A stretch of 64,000 nt of DNA. Origin: Tubulanus polymorphus. Its lineage: Eukaryota > Animalia > Nemertea. Position 1 is the stretch's first letter. Each line of letters opens with the position of its first letter. Both the position numbers and the translations under genes were made by a program. A model generated the notes under the pieces. That model searched no databases, was not told the DNA's origin, and saw only the letters and a list, made by a program, of their open reading frames with translations. The DNA is taken from assembly GCF_964204645.1 (NCBI RefSeq), contig NC_134026.1, forward strand, positions 6,037,950-6,101,949. Reading direction: 5' to 3'. Shown one piece after another: positions 13,001 to 64,000 of the stretch.

Positions 13001-16000
13001 TTAAGACCGGTGCTATTATTTCAATCCATTCTTGAAACCGGTTTTAAGGCTTTGAAAAGTCTGGTTTAAGGCTAACACCGAATCCATGCATTTAGCATTC
13101 TGTACTTTTACTCGAGTACCGGTCGTTAAATCAACACTTCTCGGTTGTCTAGAAGACATCGGTTTGAAAAATTAGTTGCGATTTTCACTTGCATATACCC
13201 CATAGACGCGGAAACATGTCTAGTTATGTTGAACTGTTTTTTTTTCTAGACCACAGCACTTGGCTGGATTGGAATTGGTTACAGAGATTTGTCGCGGTAA
13301 ACTAGAAGGCGGTTACCCGAAGTCATTATGCATCATGCTCGTTCCGAACAAAATAAGAGGAGGGCACTATCTAGCCGATACTCAGACTGCTGGGTAAGTT
13401 CATGATTATTTATGGGGGGTATTCTTATTATTTGAAACATCTCTTTATTTCACTTTATTTTAGACTCGTTCTATCAGTAATGATTTGCTGTCACCATTAC
13501 ATAGGGATGAGTCATTTTCTATAATTAAACTAAATTTTTTTCACATATGTGAGTGGTTGAACTAAAAACTAGGGCCATTTGTTTTGATTACAGCACTACC
13601 CAATAGTTGTAGTCATCGTATAAGTTTCATGTTCTGAAAATTTTTCTGTCATTTTCATTGCCAAAGATCTGTGCCTTGAGGTTGTTATGTAGGAGTTCTG
13701 AAATATAGGCATAATGCTGTGATGTTTATCGAGGAGTGACAGATAATCAAATAAACTCCACATCCAAAATTAAGCTATTATTTTCTGATTTTGGAGCTAT
13801 ACTGAAAAACTTACACCCTTGACATAGTAGCCTATAAATGTACATTTATTCTGAATGCCATTAGCTTTCAGCCTTTAAAAACAGGATCATTTTGTTCTTC
13901 ACACTATATAGGCCTGTATTCTGATGTTGTGCGGATTGATTCTAGAAAGTGTCTTTTGTATCATCCATTTAGTTAGTGTCTCTGATGTCCATATCAATCA
14001 AATATTTGTCGCGGTTTTTCCCTGTTGTCCGTGTGACAGTTCCGTTGTCTGTGTGACAGTCCCGTTGTCTGTGTGACGGTCCTGTTGTCTGTGTGACGGT
14101 CCTGTTGTCTGTTTATGATGATGTGGTGTTCATCACGTAATGCTAACTATGCTGGCCAGAGACGTGTAAATGTGTGGCATTCATGAGTAACCGAACGAAG
14201 TTATCACTCGACAGCCCGGTTTTTCAGTCTGATGTCCCCTGATTGATGTTTCGACGATCGATAGTCTATATTCTCCTACGTGACACACGGTATACCGGGT
14301 TAGTCTGCCGGTTAGCCAATCGGTACCGCAGCATAGAGTTCCCGTGCATGTATAGGCGTTCGTATAGCCGGTCGTCGCGTTGATTTAGAAATTACACAAG
14401 CATTCACCAGTGCGCGTTAATTATTTCCATGGAGATCGCTGCAGTTTTCTTTCCGAAATGAAATGAGAACCGTCCCGCGGGGCCTCTCCGCAGTATTCAA
14501 TGATATAATGTGTATAATTTGTGTTCGGCACTTTCACTAACTACATATTCTACTACGCGAATAGATTTCAATTACTTTCATAGATCCCCGAATCTCCCAG
14601 GTATAGTTGAATAAAATTTCAACAATTTCGGTGTAATATATCTTCTGATAACGCCTGCGTATGTCGGTATCATATTTATCTTTATTTTTAGCCAATTGAT
14701 GTTATGTATTTATTATACGGCGTTGAACGGAGTAAGTGACAATAGTCTCTTCGGGGCATCACATTGTGTGGGTAGAACGCAGCGTGCTATTTCAGATATC
14801 ATCGATTTCGTTTTCTAGTAAGGGGGGCGCACGACACGGAACCTCGGTTTGTTTGTTTTTCCGTGGTTTTTTTTTCTCATTTTAATCATCGGAAGTGGAG
14901 CTTCATCGATTCTGTGAGGGCTGATGATTTAGCTGTTTGTGGGGATGGTTGAGTTGCTGAGATCAACCAATAATTATTTTCCGCATAGGGCATTCGATTT
15001 ATGAAAATGTTTAGCACAACTGTTTAGTTTGAATGCAAAAGTTTATTTTCTACTGAATTTTTGATATTTTCAGTGGTATAAGTCCATTAATGAAGATAAG
15101 CTTGCCTGTTGTGATTCTGGGTTAAAAGTCATAGAATTTTAATTTTTAGTCACAATTTTATGGCCAATTTGGGGCAAAGCTCTTTTTCGGGTTTTGGAAA
15201 ATAAATATTCCAGGCCATAAATATTCCATTTATTCCTGGCCCTGGAAAAGCTATGGAAATTTTGTTTGTTTTTTTTTTTTTCACTACGAAAAAGGTAGGC
15301 CTATGGGAAATCAGAAAATGGTCTCGAGACTATTTCAATTCTATTTTAAATTTAAGGCTACATGCCTTCTATATATTTGATAACAAACTATATGGAAACA
15401 CTTTTTCGGTGGTATTGATAATTGGCACTTATTTACTTCAACTGGGCCTACATTGCCTGTTTTAGGTTGGCGATGTGCAACTTAGGGGTGTGCCTATAGA
15501 AAATTTGTAATCTGGGTATGAAAAAATATATGGATAATGAAATTTGGAAACACTTAAAAACAATGTAAATGTCTTAATATGTGGTCGGTCCACTTGACGA
15601 GAATGTAAATTTCGAATGAAGTGAAAGATTTTTTTTGAATGCATAATGATTCTCATTTTCAGGAGTATATGCCTACTTATGCAGATAAGCTTGCCTGTGA
15701 TGTTATTCGCCGACCAAGAGGTAGAAATCGTATACCGGGGCGGAACCGATGCAGATTACGCCCCCTCAATCGATCATTTTACGATGGTAAGTCCAATCCT
15801 TACTGGTATATTAACAAAGTCCCTACGACTCCTTGATTCCTTTAAAACAGCTACTAACCAGAAAATGCTTTTAAAAGTTCTTGTGAAACTCCTTTTATTT
15901 TAGCAAGATGCCCGAAACACCTTTTTAAAACTGCTTCAATTTCGAGAAATAGGTTATTAGAAATGTTTGTAGCTGTTAAGTAGACTATGCAATTGGTAGG

Positions 16001-19000
16001 CCCCTATAGTTGGCACCATGAGGAGTACTGTAATTGAGAATGATATAAAAGTGATGCAGACACTGCCTTGGAGCAGGGAAGTGTGATGAGATGGAATACG
16101 GACGCTTTTAATTGCCGGATGTAGGCTATTCAATTCAGCCCGTACATCAAAGGTTACCGCAACAGCGGTAAGCTACGCTTATCGAGTGTGTGTTACCAGC
16201 TGAACACCAGTCAACATCAACTTTGATTTGGTCGCAGAACAACCCGCAATAGTTTTAGCCCGATAAATGTTCTGCGATCGATACTACGCATGCGCACTGC
16301 AGTTCATTGAACAACGTGGAAGTGGCTGTGTATACACATATTTTTCTTTAGAAAATCGGTTGAAATTCAACAATTTCTCGAAAAATTTGTCCAAAAAGGT
16401 ATGTATTTTTATTCTTCTATATCTCCGAAACCCGGTATCGGAACATTAAGTATTTATATTGTGATTAAAGTCTGTTTTTATGTGTTAAACATATGTTTTT
16501 GCCAGTTCGTTCCGATTCCGGGTTTAGCGTTATTTGGGCCTTGAAGATGTCAAATATTTCGGCCCAGACTCGCGCAGCTTTCGTTTCTGACGTCATGTTG
16601 CTATGTTACGACACAAACATATACACGAAGTATGATCTTTAAAATGTGTATTTACTACATAATAATGTTACTTAATAACGCTTACATTAGGCCTACAAGT
16701 TATTGTCCCCCATATAAACCAAGTTGCCTAAATAGCATCAGCAATCTCATTTAATTAACCTTTTCTTGTTTTTAGTCATGGATCTTTGTCGATTGTGTGG
16801 AAAAAATGCGAAACCTCCGGATCGTCGTCCTATCGATAAAAATAATTTCAAAAGCCATGTGAAGGAGTTGTTCAACATTGATTTTGATGATGATACTGAA
16901 CAGTACCCGATATATATCTGTTATATGTGTCGTGTCAAATTACAAAAATGGCGTAAGAACGAAAACGTTAAAAAAACTGTCCCTGTGACTATCAAATTAA
17001 AACAATGGACATGTAAACCACTGGTTAATTCCAAGTCTGGACGGCGACGTATTTGTAGTCAAAATTTTATCGATCGATTTTCCATAATGTACTGCTGCCA
17101 TTCCATTTGAACTGAATTTAAATACTCGATGGTTAATCACTTCAGTCATAGCCTTTTCCAAATATATAGTGTTCCTGCGAAAATAATAATAATGATTATT
17201 ATTTTAACATGTACTTATCTGGATTTTTTATATTATGTTTATATATTTTCTGTATTCGTTTATTATTTTATAACCTAAAAGGATTGTATTGATTATAAAA
17301 ATAAATGTAAAAAATACCTGTATGTGTGTTTTCTCGTGTTCAGATCGCAGTCTCTGGTCAGCTGAGCCTGAGAAGTACCTATATGAAAAAGAAAAGGAAA
17401 GAATAAAGTGCCTGCAATTAGGTGGAAACTATTCCGATATTACATTGATTCAAAAGGAATAACACTCACTAGAATCGGCCGAATTAGTTGATCCTGATCC
17501 AGAGGATTCCCGTAATATTTCCGTATCGATCTGAACCAATTCGTCACTATCAAAGAATAGTTCGTCAAAATCGTCATCATTTATAATTTCGTTGACAACC
17601 GTTGCCATTTTAATACAGCGGAAAGAACCGATATCACGATTGATAAAACACTATATCCGTCTGAAGCGATGTAGAGAGAATCGCACAATGATAACGAAAA
17701 AGTCCAAAAATGTTAGTAGTTTATTCAACGTTTCGTCTATGTCCTAATAGTCATCTTCAGAAATAATGAATACTACAGAAATTATGAGAGATATATACAA
17801 TCCAGAGACAAAGAGACTAATTCAAGTAATCAGAGATGATACAAACTAAAGGAAAATTAACGTAGAAACAGTTACACGCTAAAACAGATTAAAGAGAAGC
17901 AGTTAAGAGACAAACTAGGGGGTACTTAAATTTAAGACAATTGTGAATACAAGTTGATCGACTAAAATTGATGAGGGGAAATCAGGTGTTGAGTTTAACC
18001 TGTTTACAGAGGAATTTTTATGTAAGTTTATTATGGGATGAAAAACCGATATTCGGAAACAACTGAATTATTACGGAGATTCCCGATCTCGCTGGTTATC
18101 GCTTATCGGCGCGTTACGTAACAAAGCGCTCGCCGACGAACCGTTGTCGGCTTTAGGGCAATTACAACGCACATTCGACAAGAGCTGCACAATAGCGTCC
18201 GTATTCCATCTCATCACACTTCCCTGCTTGGAGTTAGACATTTTTCATCGGAAACTCGTTATATCTAGGAATGACTGATCTGTAGGGACCCCGATAGGTT
18301 ATATTTCTTCGACCTCATTTGGATACCACCAACACCCCCTAACCATGGTTTGAATGGCGACATTTCCTCTTAACCCTTTCAGTGCATCTACACCGCAGTG
18401 CAGTGTATAAATCAGTGATAGATTTTTGCTAGTACACCACACTGCAGTGTATTGATGTAATTAGTAATTATCTCTCTTGAAAAATGGCAGCACCTGTCAA
18501 ACATATTGAAATACTAGTAACTAACGATACACCGCGTCGGGGTATAGACGCACTACAGTGGTATTCCCGTTATTCAACACACTGAGGTGAAACACTGTGT
18601 ACACTGGAAGATGTGTCAAATGACCTATGCTCCCCATAGGCTATATTATCAAAGACTTATAAAACGACAACAAAGGGTAAAAGGCTTTTGTTCGCAATTT
18701 GTGAACAAAAGTTTTCTATAAGATTGAAAAATCTTTATCGCGCACGTGGCAGTTTTCGTGTTCCAATATTTTTATCGATATATTTTTCATTAGAATAATG
18801 ACTAGGCACCTCTCGCAATGTGATGATTGAAAAAATATTGCATTAAAATTGTCATTTCGGTAAAAGCTGCTAGGTGTTAATCTGTGGAAGGCTGAATGCC
18901 TGGTAGTAGGTGATCGGATTTTCATAGATTTGAATTTCGATCGCGCTATGAAGAAATGTCGGTTTTTTAATACGAGAATAAAACTATTTGTTGAATGATT

Positions 19001-35288: not shown

Positions 35289-37277
35289 TCAGCTAGCTTT
35301 TTTCATTTGTTCTTCGATTTGTTTTTCCCTCATCCGATCCAGCCTACTAGCAGCTTTCACAATACTTGATTTCTGTAAATAGACATAAAAGAATGGGCTA
35401 CTTTATCATAAGATACGCGTAGGGTTTGAGAGGGATGAAGATAACTGCCTTCGATTGATAAAATTGTGCTTACAGCAGAAGGGTCCTCATGACGAAACAA
35501 CTCGGCCTGAAACAAATCAAAGCGATGCATTTCACTCAACGAGAAAGAACATTTCAAACAGGGGCTTGCCACATGATAGAGGATGGATGATAGCCAATAT
35601 CTGTATATAAAAAAAGAGTATATCCCTACAAGGATACTGGTATCATCCATTCACCAACATATCGTGACAAGCCCCTATGATATTTCATTGTTGGCTAGTA
35701 AAATTATCTGAAATCTTATAGGTGCGCTGCTAAATGCAAGATACTATAAACCACAAAGATCAGGTGAAGCCTTCTTGGGCGGCTAGTCGTCGCTCGTTGT
35801 TTGATATCGTTACTTACACGTTTTTCGATCATCCAACTTTCAAAAAATTCTGGTTGATTGAAATAATAAAACAATCCTATTGGAAATGTCATATACATCG
35901 CCATCTGGAAAGATATATGGTTATCATACATACATTACACAACCACAGGGGCTCGTTACGATAGCTGGGGGTCCAAAATCAAAGATTTGACCCAGTATCC
36001 TAGGTACCACCTATAAAAAAAGAAAAGGGAGCTAACATTTTGACATACAAGAATTGACCTTCTCATTTCAACCCCTCATAACTTCGTAACCGATCGACCG
36101 ATTTACACGAAATTAGATTCGTTTCATTCCCAAGAGGTGACTTTTTCGTTTGAGACCTTCCCCGATGAAATCGGACCGGAGACGCCCGAGAAATCACGAC
36201 TCAAATCCGAAAAAACGGGTCAAAATATCCAAAGCCGGAATTACTAGGACGGCTTGAAGTGCTCAATTTCCGACGAAAAATGATGATTTGACGCGGTTCC
36301 CGGACGTTAATCTTCACATATCATACATCGCTGGAAAGCTTATGAACTGACCTTATTGACAGACGCGTTTATTTGATAATCCGTTCCGATACCCGCGACT
36401 GGCGAGCTGATAATCCAGATTGATGCGATAAATACGATTTCCAAGTGTATTCCTGCCGCCATTAACTGCGTGACGTCATGAGAAATCCCAGCATGCAACG
36501 CTAGATAATTAACATATTCAGTCGACCAATCACGTATCGCGAATTTATCAGTCCTCAGAGCCCGTGACGTCACACCCTCAATGGCGGTTCAATGACGCTT
36601 AAGGTGCGTATTTATCGGTTCGGTGCGTATTATCACCTCGCTTGTCGCCGGTTTCGGAACGGATTATCAAATAAACGCATTTTTCAATAAGGTCAGTTCA
36701 TAAGCTTTCCAGCGATGTATGATATGTGAAGATTAACGTCCGGGAACCGCGTCAACTCATCGTTTTTCGTCGGGAATCGACTACTCCGAGACGTCCTAGT
36801 AATTCCGGCTTTGGCTATTTTGACTCGTTTTTTCGGATTTGAGTCGTGATTTCTCGGGTGTCTCTTATCCAATTTTGTCGCGGAAGGTCTTAAACGAAAA
36901 AGTAACCTCTTAGGAATGAAACGAAACCAATTTCGAGCGAATCGGTCGATGAGTTACGAAGTTATGAGCGATTGAAATGAGAAGGTCAATTCTAGTATGT
37001 CAAAATGTTAGCTCCCTTTTCTTTTTTTATAGGTGGTACCTAGGATACTGGGTCAAATCTTTGATTTTGGACCCCCAGCTATCGTAACGAGCCCCTGTGT
37101 ACACAACGGTAACGAATTCATTACGTAAATGTATGATTTCGTTAAGTTTATGTCGGTAATTAGTACGACAATCGAACCTCTCGAACATGTATTAAATAGG
37201 GGTTCACGATGTTATCACGTGGTTTCAGGCATTAACTATTGACTTACCTTAAATACCTCCAATTTCCATCCACCCAT
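35289..37277 (-). CDS. PET100: Cytochrome c oxidase assembly factor PET100 (77 aa), 4 exons
   Basis: Exons 37248-37277, 35818-35904, 35474-35506, 35289-35372 (all phase 0, GT-AG) give MGGWKLEVFKMAMYMTFPIGLFYYFNQPEFFESWMIEKRAELFRHEDPSAKSSIVKAASRLDRMREKQIEEQMKKAS, matching the PET100 N-terminal pattern KLE.F.M..Y.TFP...F...NQ.E.FE. Confidence 0.92.
35944..37099. mobile_element. Foldback-type non-autonomous DNA transposon (1156 bp) with ~500-bp TIRs and 8-bp TSD, in PET100 intron 1
   Basis: Termini CACAGGGG...CCCCTGTG. The outer ~105 bp are perfectly inverted and the inner arms progressively diverged. TSD TACACAAC at 35936-35943 and 37100-37107. Confidence 0.93.
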
Positions 37278-45296: not shown

Positions 45297-46301
45297 TCAA
45301 AACGTCAGATTCTGAGACATCATAACCTGACAGCCGCTTTTCACGTGTTCGAGAATTTGCTGTTTCAACCGGCAGACCTGTTCGCGTAAACTCGTCGCCG
45401 TCGTCGACAAGTTCTCGTTTTCGTCCTTCAAATCGTTCACTTTGTCTTCGAGACGCGAGATCCGTTCGAGTTTGCGGTGGCGACACTTGCGCGCGGCGAT
45501 GCGGTTGCGCGCGCGTTTGCGTTCGACTTTCATCACCTCCTGGTTCTCCATGTCGACGGGCGACAACGGAGGAGAATTGCATAGACTCGGAACAGTTTGC
45601 GGCTCCTCTTTGATGCGCATGATCAGCGGATTTTGCGCCGCGTTCGTCATGGAATTCGTGACGGTGGTCGTCGCGATCGGGACCGTGTCGACGAACGATT
45701 GTTGCATCGACGGCAACGACGCGACAGTGTTCAACGTTGTGTACGTAGTTTGAGGCTGAGCGAAGCCGGCGGCGGTCGCGTCGAACGAACTCGACGACAC
45801 TTGCTGTTGACTGAGCGTCGTCAGGTTATCGATCGAATCGCCGCCCTCGTGGGTTTTGTGAAGTTCTTCGAGCGCGTCGACGAAGCCTCGCGCGTACGCT
45901 TCTTGTTCTTCGGTGACGAATTTCGGGCACAGGAACTGCGTCGGAGTCGGCGTCGTCGTGATCATACCGTTCTGTTGGATGATCATACGCTCGAGTTCCG
46001 GTGACGCCAACTTCAACATGTTCAAATCGGGCGATCCCAATAATCCGGGCGTATTCGCCAGTTTCGCCTTCTTCGACTTGATCGCTGACATTCCCGAATT
46101 GAAATCGAGCGTCATCGTTCTCTTCAACTGGCGAACGGAATTCTGCGATTGGACATCGTCTCCGTACATGGTGGTCTCCATTTTAGACGTTGTTGGTTGT
46201 TGCTGCTGTGGTTTTGAGTTGGACGATGCTGCAGACACTGGATCTGACTGCTCTTGCGGGTGATAACGACGACGACCGGTTAGTAACGACAATACCGGCA
46301 T
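45297..46301 (-). CDS. JUN: AP-1 transcription factor Jun (intronless bZIP); first ATG 46301, conserved METT start ATG 46181
   Basis: SKMETT N-terminus, delta domain [12 protein letters not shown] sites [17 protein letters not shown] and [36 protein letters not shown], and b[32 protein letters not shown]...HVKSGC. Confidence 0.98.
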
Positions 46302-46406
46302 CCAAATGTTCAATTCGATAGTTTTATTATTGAAAACACTGAATGTTATTACTCACTGTGTAGTTGAACTTGTTTTGGCACCAGCGCCGGCTCTAGTTTA
46401 AGAGTA

Positions 46407-62100: not shown

Positions 62101-64000
62101 TTTGTACACAGAACACAGGAAAATTCGTTATTCATCGCAACTGTTTATCGGCAAATATTCATATTCACACAACAGCGCGACGTACTAATCTACCAGCACA
62201 AAAATTCGAAAAACAGCTGTTCCCTTTCATTCCATATGAATCAAGACCCTAGATTCAATAATACAAATGGATCCGAGCTAACTCTTGTTGACACGCATAT
62301 ATGGCTGCGCAATTCGTAAATAATCAATATCTCTTTTTGTTAGTTGATTTTCAGGACTCGGTTTCATTGACTGCATGATACTTGTTATAACCCGTGGGAA
62401 TATTGCAAAATATGACGATTTCTATGATTTTTCATTTTTTCCTATGGCAGTAATCGGATAAATAAATGCCACCGGATAATTTTGACATGCAGCTAATGAA
62501 ACTGAGTCGACAACTACGGTTTGTCGTTTCCCTAGCCTAACTTTCTATTGAGTCCTAACCCTGTGGCCGCTTTTAGTGCGGATGCTTACTGGTACGATGC
62601 TGCGAATAAATTTCAAAAGAAATGTCTGAAAATTTCCAAAATGATTTGACAGGCATCAGCCATCTTTTATTTGAAAAAAGGAACATGGCTACGCCCCATT
62701 TTTTTCAGTAGTATAACACACGGGAGATAGGAAGCGAAAATGAGATAAGGGAGAGAAATCGAACACCGGCCAAACACAGGTGAAAAACTTACCAGACCTC
62801 GGAACCGAACCCGTAGCACGCCAGCTGCAGCATTTCAAACACTAGACCGATCATGATTGTATGCTTATTACCGAGATATTTCATCAACACGGCGAGAATG
62901 GCAGTCTAATATATCAACGATGAGAAAACATCCAATTACAAAAATCACTATCAAGAACGTAGAGGATAAAACAATAAGCAATAACGAGCTTTGAAATTAA
63001 CAATTGTAATCAAATTGAAGATATTTTCCAAATATCAAAATTGAGACTTTCTTCTTCAGTACAGTGGGTTTTCACTTTTCTAAATATGGAATTTAAACAT
63101 TTTCCGCTTGCTTAAGTTTAAAATATTACGGTTTTTGAGATTCTATAAGCCTATAATTTCTTTGTATCTTTCGCATGTTAAAAAGCAGACCCAGTTTCCC
63201 AGTTCCTGAACTTCCACAAAGTTCATTTTCTTTTCAATGCAAACTGGGACCCAACTCCACAGTTGTGAGTTAGAGTTTACTCTGAGTTAAAGTTAGTTCA
63301 TTTTCAATTAGTTAACTCAAGGGAACTGTGGAACTGGACCCAGTACATTCAATCGATACAGGGGAGATGACGATTCAATGTCAATCGTAACAATAGCAGC
63401 GGTTTTTAAAAACGGTTAAGCGGTTAAGGAGTGGAAGGAAGGAAGGGAAGTTAATCGGTACGTACTTGAGCTAAAACAGATAAAACACCGACGACTGCAA
63501 TAAAAGATGCTACAGCCTCTTCTGAGAAACCCATTATCTGTAAAATGTGAAGATAGTAATTAACATCGTTGCATCTCTAGCCAGTAATCAGTTTAAAAAG
63601 TGTAGATTTCACAGACAAAGCGTATAGCATTAACCCTTTCAGTGCATCTACACCGCAGTGCGGTGTATAAATCAGTGATAGATTTTGCTAGCACACCGTA
63701 CGCGGTGCGGTGTAGATGCACTATAGTGGAATTCCTGTATTCCATTGTTCATAATATAAGACTAATGCAATATTCGGAATTAACTCCGGAGATAATCCGA
63801 ATAAATTAATTTTTCGCCAATTCACGGTTGCGAAACAGATCACCTAATTGATTCAAACTAGAAGTAAACCGTCGTTCGTGAAACCGGGCCTTACAGTCAT
63901 AATACGTACCAGTTTGAGATAGACGAAGAAACACGAATATTCACCGGCTTCAGGCAAATACGACAGGAACACCGTTATACACAGCATAATCATCATTTTG
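59140..64000 (-). CDS. MFSD14A: MFS transporter MFSD14/HIAT1 family, 3' portion (runs off the window)
   Basis: Exons approx. 63910->64000, 63467-63537, 62793-62906, 61429-61527, 60467-60649, 59643-59802, 59140-59192. Motifs CITVFLSYLPEAGEYSCFFVYL, GNKHTIMIGLVFEMLQL, MWAAGCIAAGSSITYPAISS, QGVVTGIRGLCNGLGPALYG, PGPPFAFGSVLV. It cannot be assigned to the vertebrate A versus B paralog. Confidence 0.93.
60163..60433. mobile_element. Two inverted copies of a tRNA-derived SINE-like fragment (60163-60240 minus; 60367-60433 plus)
   Basis: Shared GT.CCGTGG.TGAGTC..CGATGCCA.CAGGTTC.AATCC; pol III B-box GGTTCGAATCC at 60410-60420. Confidence 0.6.
63244..63343. mobile_element. Short MITE; related remnants near 32330-32435 and 59275-59375
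   Basis: CTGGGACCCAACTCCACAGTT ... AACTGTGGAACTGGACCCAG inverted termini. Confidence 0.65.

What the first reader, a model, noticed from the sequence alone, without database searches (positions are those of the whole stretch)
16067..18233. Two-gene TIR transposon with ProtoRAG-like architecture but non-RSS ends
Seen: perfect 33-bp TIRs, a duplicated target, and two spliced genes pointing inward from opposite ends that meet at about 17000-17110, consistent with an internal deletion removing both 3' halves. The + gene opens with a RAG1-N-like zinc finger. Known: ProtoRAG/RAGL transposons carry convergent RAG1L and RAG2L genes between TIRs that start with a CAC heptamer and make 5-bp TSDs. Inference: this is a young deletion derivative of an autonomous two-gene element. 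Its ends (CAGGGAAG) are not RSS-like, so it may be an undescribed RAG-related or RAG1-N-bearing family.
Basis: partly seen in the sequence, partly recalled or inferred. Interest (0 to 1): 0.88.

Follow-up and report, generated by a model that had tools for sequence, protein, structure and literature searches.

The report
Split P-type transposon with RAG1-like finger
This is a young, many-copy jumping gene of a ribbon worm with its middle deleted; it is not a relative-in-layout of the antibody-gene (RAG) transposon but likely belongs to a group of P-element-type transposons whose enzyme is split over two facing genes, and it carries a RAG1-like zinc finger where P elements normally have a different DNA-binding domain.

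Summary
The element is real: 16074-18226, perfect 33-bp TIRs (CAGGG...), 7-bp TSD, about 60 copies by read depth, in a genome whose near-identical proteins are labelled Tubulanus polymorphus (nemertean). The deletion junction is at 17011/17012; RefSeq copies show a second, independent deletion. The + stub is a ZFa/ZAD-type C4 finger that does resemble the RAG1L N-terminal finger. The ProtoRAG reading fails: no CAC end, no 5-bp TSD, no kelch start. Instead, the - gene's longest surviving part (from longer copies) matches, moderately (14 bits, above 9,449 real decoys; it leans on a WxxFH motif), the N-terminal helical domain of a second gene that I found facing a P-type transposase in 49 of 55 informative metagenomic loci. 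These relatives have CA-starting 22-50-bp TIRs and 7-bp TSDs (9 elements), their transposases stop before the C-terminal domain, and the second gene carries that domain (profile E 2e-5; Z 11.4 to Drosophila P transposase 6P5A). Best reading: a non-autonomous derivative of a two-gene, split-transposase P-type element with a RAG1/Chapaev-type finger in place of THAP. Its catalytic core is deleted and could not be tested.

The parts
16067..16073 (.). Left copy of 7-bp target-site duplication CTTGGAG
   Evidence: boundary supported by reads differing at 16073
16074..16106 (+). Left TIR, 33 bp, perfect
16399..16775 (+). Putative 5'-UTR intron of the + gene (GTATGT ... TTTTAG); unverified
   Evidence: no RNA data
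16778..17011 (+). 5' stub of the presumed transposase: ZFa/ZAD-type C4 zinc finger resembling the RAG1L/Chapa N-terminal finger, cut by the deletion after 78 residues
   Evidence: Pfam zf-AD 31 bits, above cut-off 28; Atlas; by-eye comparison
17011..17012 (.). Deletion junction of the commonest class of copies
17012..17174 (-). Exon 3 of the second gene, genuine part (first helices of the partner's N-terminal domain); reads through to a stop at 16997
17318..17378 (-). Exon 2 of the second gene
17470..17608 (-). Exon 1 of the second gene (acidic, Ser-rich start)
17716..17765 (-). Short stretch shared with a very high-copy tandem repeat; holds a hammerhead-core-like pattern (17760-17731); not essential to the reading
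   Evidence: no Rfam match
18194..18226 (-). Right TIR, 33 bp
18227..18233 (.). Right copy of the 7-bp TSD

Best explanation
This is an internally deleted, multi-copy DNA transposon with 33-bp ends and a 7-bp target duplication, likely derived from a two-gene P-type element in which the transposase is split: the + gene would make the catalytic part, headed by a RAG1/Chapaev-type zinc finger instead of THAP, and the facing - gene would make the C-terminal domain as a separate subunit. Shown: ends, TSD, copy number, two independent deletions, the finger, and the two-gene split layout in relatives. Inferred: that this element's - gene is that partner gene (moderate profile match), that its missing + interior is a P-type RNase H/GTP-binding core, that the two proteins act together, and that the finger binds the ends or dimerises. 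The copy itself cannot encode either full protein; it would be moved in trans, cut-and-paste, by an autonomous copy that recognises the TIRs.
For: (1) 7-bp TSD and CA-starting perfect TIR, as in P-superfamily Galileo/1360 (7 bp; PMC3698922) and in 9 related elements (4, 5). (2) A recalled P-transposase motif fetched 120 loci; both transposases scanned hit PF21787; 49 of 55 loci with at least 1 kb downstream carry a convergent second gene, 1 carries it on the same strand, 5 show none. (3) Fetched the other way, by the second gene alone, 4 of 5 loci hold a facing P transposase or part of one, with TIRs and 7-bp TSD. (4) All 112 of 120 transposase frames that reach a stop end within 94 residues of the motif, with no CTD match in the tail; the second-gene profile hits the Drosophila P transposase C-terminal chain 6P5A_B (E 2e-5) and its model overlays it at Z 11.4, rmsd 2.3, 118 of 118 residues, next row Z 7.1. 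(5) Residues 66-148 of the longer Tubulanus copy P0038 align colinearly over 75 columns to the start of the group A partner profile: 13.9 bits, 0 of 5000 shuffles; ranks above all 9,449 real decoy frames, best decoy 7.9 bits, again with 19 sequences; hhalign P 1.3e-4, 0 of 60 shuffles as high.
Against: The match of the - gene is modest: hhalign probability 54% and 18% with the whole protein; without the WxxFH segment it falls to 4.8 bits, rank 7; the part encoded in the window alone is not significant (57 of 5000 shuffles); pairwise scores to four independent partners are not significant (129-777 of 2000 shuffles); with group B sequences mixed in the profile gives only 4.9 bits (16 of 5000). 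I went to this family from a recalled motif, so the test is post hoc. None of 25 relatives with at least 3 kb upstream shows a ZFa-like finger. The relatives' TIRs start CATAGAT and are not more similar to this TIR than chance. No catalytic core and no autonomous copy was recovered. Canonical P elements have THAP and one gene (PMC7776569).
Confidence: 0.75

Rival explanations
1. A RAG-like (RAGL/ProtoRAG-type) transposon with altered ends: + gene RAG1L, - gene RAG2L.
For: Convergent layout; finger about 43% identical by eye to an oyster RAG1L N-terminus; nemerteans carry RAGL elements (PMC7204232); some RAG1L carry ZFa only (bioRxiv 10.64898/2026.01.24.700457).
Against: Protostome RAGL TIRs start CAC and TSDs are 'invariably 5 bp'; here CAG and 7 bp. 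The first 148 residues of the - protein hold no GG kelch motif, unlike the RAG2L N-termini listed, and give no kelch hit in Pfam at E up to 10.
Confidence: 0.05
2. A Chapaev/CMC element that has picked up a second gene.
For: The finger is the ZFa half of the Chapa/NZD domain, said to be kept only in RAG1L and Chapaev transposases.
Against: Chapaev hallmarks are CAC...GTG ends and 3-4-bp TSD (PMC4079192); neither is met. No N-terminal His for ZFb before the finger.
Confidence: 0.05
3. A two-gene element of another or an undescribed superfamily that makes 7-bp TSDs; the likeness of the - gene to the P partner is chance.
For: The partner match leans on one short motif; TIR sequence unlike the relatives'; finger absent from all relatives examined.
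Against: Colinear match at the right end of the right protein, above all real decoys, together with TSD length, TIR length and gene orientation that were not used to pick the family.
Confidence: 0.1
4. A P-type non-autonomous element in which the finger stub is captured cargo (from a host or RAG1L/Chapaev gene), not the head of its own transposase.
For: No relative with this finger; no annotated protein sharing words with the stub at 47-2000 residues.
Against: The stub sits where the transposase start lies in relatives, about 700 bases inside the left end and pointing inward; both deletion classes keep it.
Confidence: 0.05

Closest known systems
P superfamily: Drosophila P element (PDB 6P5A; PMC7776569, passages read), Galileo and 1360 (7-bp TSD; PMC3698922, passages read)
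   Same: Perfect TIR of about 31-33 bp, 7-bp TSD, many internally deleted copies; in relatives, the RNase H/GTP-binding core and a CTD fold matching 6P5A_B.
   Different: Two convergent genes instead of one; CTD on a separate gene with an extra N-terminal helical domain; C4 ZFa/ZAD-type finger instead of THAP.
Two-gene P-type elements found here in metagenome and MAG contigs (L006, L009, L062, L066, L121-L124 and others)
   Same: Convergent layout, CA-starting 22-50-bp TIRs, 7-bp TSD, partner N-terminal domain ending in WxxFH.
   Different: TIRs start CATAGAT; partner genes mostly read as one open frame; no ZFa finger in 25 examined.
ProtoRAG / RAGL transposons (PMC7204232 passages and supplement hits; PMC4411706 part 1 of 4 and passages)
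   Same: Two convergent genes between TIRs; N-terminal ZFa-type finger on the gene at the left end.
   Different: CAC heptamer and 5-bp TSD absent; second protein helical-domain-like, not kelch/PHD.
Chapaev transposons / Chapa (NZD) domain (PMC4079192 passages; bioRxiv 10.64898/2026.01.24.700457 abstract, section 8, passages)
   Same: ZFa-type finger at the transposase start.
   Different: Ends, TSD length, second gene; no N-terminal ZFb histidine.

Membership tests
RAGL/ProtoRAG | TIR starts with CAC heptamer-like sequence | tested here: not met
   CAGGGAAG
RAGL/ProtoRAG | 5-bp TSD | tested here: not met
   7 bp
RAGL/ProtoRAG | Two convergent genes | tested here: met
RAGL/ProtoRAG | RAG1L N-terminal zinc finger (ZFa) | tested here: met
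   (by eye); Pfam prefers zf-AD and gives no PF12560 hit
RAGL/ProtoRAG | RAG1 catalytic core | not testable with these tools
   deleted; no genome held
RAGL/ProtoRAG | RAG2L kelch propeller from the N-terminus | tested here: not met
   148 residues without GG motif or kelch hit
Chapaev (CMC) | CAC...GTG termini and 3-4-bp TSD | tested here: not met
Chapaev (CMC) | Full Chapa domain (ZFa + ZFb) | tested here: inconclusive
   ZFa present; no N-terminal His; C-terminal ZFb ligands would lie in the deletion
Canonical P element | 7-8-bp TSD and about 31-bp perfect TIR | tested here: met
   the CA..TG rule for P termini is recalled, not read
Canonical P element | N-terminal THAP domain | tested here: not met
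   zf-AD, no THAP hit; so not filed as a canonical P element
Canonical P element | Single gene with CTD fused to the core | tested here: not met
   two facing genes; split shown in relatives
P superfamily | RNase H core with GTP-binding insertion | not testable with these tools
   deleted in this copy; shown only for relatives
Two-gene P-type group (defined here) | Convergent partner gene with N-terminal helical domain ending in WxxFH | tested here: met
   moderate support; motif-dependent
Two-gene P-type group (defined here) | CTD region (YxxGY...RGGL) in the partner | not testable with these tools
   lies beyond the longest surviving part

The most novel reading that the evidence does not exclude
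A widespread, undescribed lineage of P-superfamily transposons uses a two-subunit transposase (core plus separately encoded C-terminal domain from a convergent gene), a layout arrived at independently of RAG1/RAG2, and the nemertean branch has replaced THAP with the RAG1/Chapaev N-terminal zinc finger, making P elements a third transposase lineage that carries this finger and showing it is a swappable module.
Probability: 0.45. Interest if true: 0.75.

Novelty: new variant of a known kind. Interest (0 to 1): 0.58.

Why it matters
It removes a false lead on RAG ancestry: convergent genes plus a RAG1-N finger do not make a RAGL element. In exchange it points to a natural split of the P transposase at the linker between RNase H and CTD, which in the Drosophila structure is flexible and places the CTD on transposon and target DNA (PMC7776569). 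A trans-acting CTD subunit would make it possible to test what the CTD does and whether its supply controls transposition, and would offer a two-part transposase. A ZFa finger on a P-type element would bear on the 2026 proposal that only RAG1L and Chapaev keep this domain and that it came from a ZAD-like one-zinc ancestor.

Tried and rejected
No whole genome held, so no search for longer copies in the assembly; the window has no second copy. No RNA holder listed. A closer read view of the junction was not obtained, so the letters that longer copies carry across it remain unknown. An empty-site joint at the exact TSD is not among the 15 joints shown (370 more not shown); a 16068-18260 joint is imprecise and not used. 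Protein searches with the finger found nothing (PDB sequences); phmmer with exon 3 found only the Tubulanus record, and the two of the other 29 hits that I opened were repetitive proteins. Atlas gave no usable hit for the - protein. No relative of P0034 in metagenome contigs; none of the motif or partner family in viral contigs. Single-sequence fold of P0042 was all-helical but unreliable (pLDDT 40). Foldseek alone ranked 6P5A_B first but at E 0.26. A likeness I thought I saw between the inner TIR and the relatives' TIRs was rejected (1636 of 5000 shuffles; 1204 of 8210 window 36-mers). The hammerhead-like stretch has no Rfam match and no unusual folding (z -1.35). No complex prediction was run. 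Ten paper searches gave no description of a two-gene or split P element; Repbase Reports and a Repbase review (not held) could not be read and may already record such elements. The bioRxiv preprint's supplements were not seen.

Full report
What is there. The element spans 16074-18226 (2,153 bp) with perfect 33-bp TIRs and the 7-bp duplication CTTGGAG. In one WGS run (X6, about 12 in 100 reads) depth over the left arm is about 60 times that of four single-copy flank bins, 27-75 times on four right-arm bins and about 36 times on the bin beside the junction (reads counted from 85% identity, so a rough figure). The main contigs of runs X1 and X3 differ from the window by 1-3 bases per 150-440, so the family is young. 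A contig of run X5, from another study, spans the junction (16719-17176). The best protein hit is a RefSeq model labelled Tubulanus polymorphus, 98% identical; the window also holds a c-Jun gene.

The two stubs. The + ORF starts at 16778 with a CxxC...CxxC finger, Pfam zf-AD at 31 bits. The Atlas places it next to a cluster in which 33% of members carry PF12560 RAG1_imp_bd (score 0.92), and by eye it shares about 23 of 53 columns with an oyster RAG1L N-terminus printed in supplement 8 of PMC7204232. A 2026 preprint (10.64898/2026.01.24.700457; abstract, section 8 and passages read) splits this domain into ZFa, similar to ZAD, and ZFb, and says Chapaev is the only other lineage that keeps it; PMC4411706 says the same of the Chapa domain. 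The stub has ZFa and lacks the N-terminal His of ZFb. The - gene splices in three GT-AG exons to give exactly RefSeq model P0037. Of 17 RefSeq proteins aligned (15 listed of a 16-member cluster plus a 2-member cluster), 9 end as in the window, 6 continue about 22-27 genuine residues further to a KMW/KMWAKFH motif, 1 continues two residues and 1 ends earlier. Three of the 6 then run into the antisense of the + arm at 16992. The two classes have a longer left arm and a longer right arm respectively, so neither is nested in the other: at least two deletions from a longer parent. The window's junction is 17011/17012.

Not RAGL, not Chapaev. Protostome RAGL elements start CAC and make 5-bp TSDs (PMC7204232, passages); Chapaev elements start CAC and make 3-4-bp TSDs (PMC4079192, passages). 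RAG2L proteins begin with kelch repeats with GG motifs; the 148 surviving residues here have none and no kelch hit.

The P lead. The 7-bp TSD fits Galileo and 1360 of the P superfamily (PMC3698922, passages). From memory, the WxxFH motif recalled proteins found beside P-type transposases in marine invertebrates, so I tested this with a recalled transposase motif as a DNA pattern. It fetched 120 loci from metagenome contigs (scan stopped at its limit; 40 loci have short flanks). Two transposase frames scanned both hit PF21787, one also PF21788 strongly. Of 55 loci with at least 1 kb downstream, 49 carry a related second gene facing the transposase, 1 on the same strand, 5 none (loci are not independent, several come from one sample). 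All 112 transposase frames that reach a stop end within 94 residues of the motif with no CTD match. The second-gene profile hits the C-terminal chain of Drosophila P transposase (6P5A_B, E 2e-5); its model (pLDDT 81) overlays residues 617-734 with Z 11.4, rmsd 2.3, 118 aligned, next row 7.1 (the tool warns that Z under about 13 can be generic for helical bundles, but the sequence hit is independent). Residues 1-130 form an extra helical domain without a clear match. Complete elements have CATAGAT-starting TIRs and 7-bp TSDs in 4 loci (4 more TIR pairs of this type there lack a TSD) and 5 elements. In the reverse test, loci fetched by the second gene alone held a facing P transposase or part of it in 4 of 5. 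Among 21 non-redundant partners chosen by their C-terminal half, 15 form group A (14 with WxxFH or WxxYH) and 6 form group B with a C2H2 finger.

Linking the window's element to this group. Residues 66-148 of P0038 align over 75 columns to the start of the group A profile, from the first helix to WxxFH: 13.9 bits, 0 of 5000 shuffles, hhalign P 1.3e-4 and probability 54%, above all 9,449 real decoy frames (best 7.9 bits). Against this: whole-protein hhalign probability is 18%; without the motif segment 4.8 bits, rank 7; the window-encoded part alone, the mixed A+B profile and single pairwise comparisons are weak or not significant; no relative has the ZFa finger (0 of 25); TIR sequences are unrelated beyond CA. 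The link therefore rests on a moderate profile match plus three features not used to choose the family: TSD length, TIR length and gene orientation.

How it most likely works. Shown: a non-autonomous family amplified recently by a transposase that leaves 7-bp duplications. Inferred: the parent made a P-type core from the + gene and the CTD from the - gene; in Drosophila the CTD hangs on a flexible linker, sits between RNase H and the GTP-binding domain of another subunit and contacts transposon and target DNA (PMC7776569, passages), which makes supply in trans plausible. The finger would replace THAP in end binding or dimerisation (untested). Both stubs here are truncated, so this copy would depend on an autonomous one.

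Novelty. Ten searches of the held library found no account of a split or two-gene P element or of an NZD-type finger on one; PMC9587614, PMC10983969, PMC6431247 and PMC5753468 (passages read) do not mention it in the passages seen. Verdict: real element; RAG link not supported beyond the finger; likely a new variant of the P superfamily; interest 0.58.

Noticed in passing
window 17716-17765 (- strand pattern 17760-17731): About 50 nt shared with a very high-copy tandem repeat (depth about 3,500 against 6); holds a CTGAxGA...GAAA hammerhead-core-like pattern upstream of the - gene. No Rfam match, folding not unusual.
   Followed up: partly
window 35944-37099: 1.15-kb palindromic (foldback/MITE-like) element, 85% self-inverted.
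   Followed up: no
window 45297-46352 (-): Intronless c-Jun/AP-1 gene (Pfam Jun and bZIP).
   Followed up: partly
window 18252-18291 and 18370-18583; 63630-63697: High-copy repeats right beside the element; part of the second recurs at 63630-63697. The left flank 15780-16050 is also repetitive.
   Followed up: no
L121-L125: Contigs filed in bacterial and archaeal MAGs carry animal-type two-gene P elements (L121 with microsatellite flanks), which suggests host DNA in those genome bins.
   Followed up: partly
L003, L010, L018, L025, L055, L070: Group B partner proteins (6 of 21) have a C2H2 finger, some after an acidic start, in front of the CTD-like region, so DNA-binding modules vary on both genes of this group.
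   Followed up: partly
L124 (3.3-kb element) and L052: L124 is an internally deleted element that keeps the partner gene; L052 has THAP-like start and a possible right end only 437 bases after the motif, with no room for a partner.
   Followed up: no
TSDs of 9 relatives and of the window element: Second base is T in 8 of 9 relatives and sixth base A in 5 of 9; the window's TSD has both. Too few to test.
   Followed up: no
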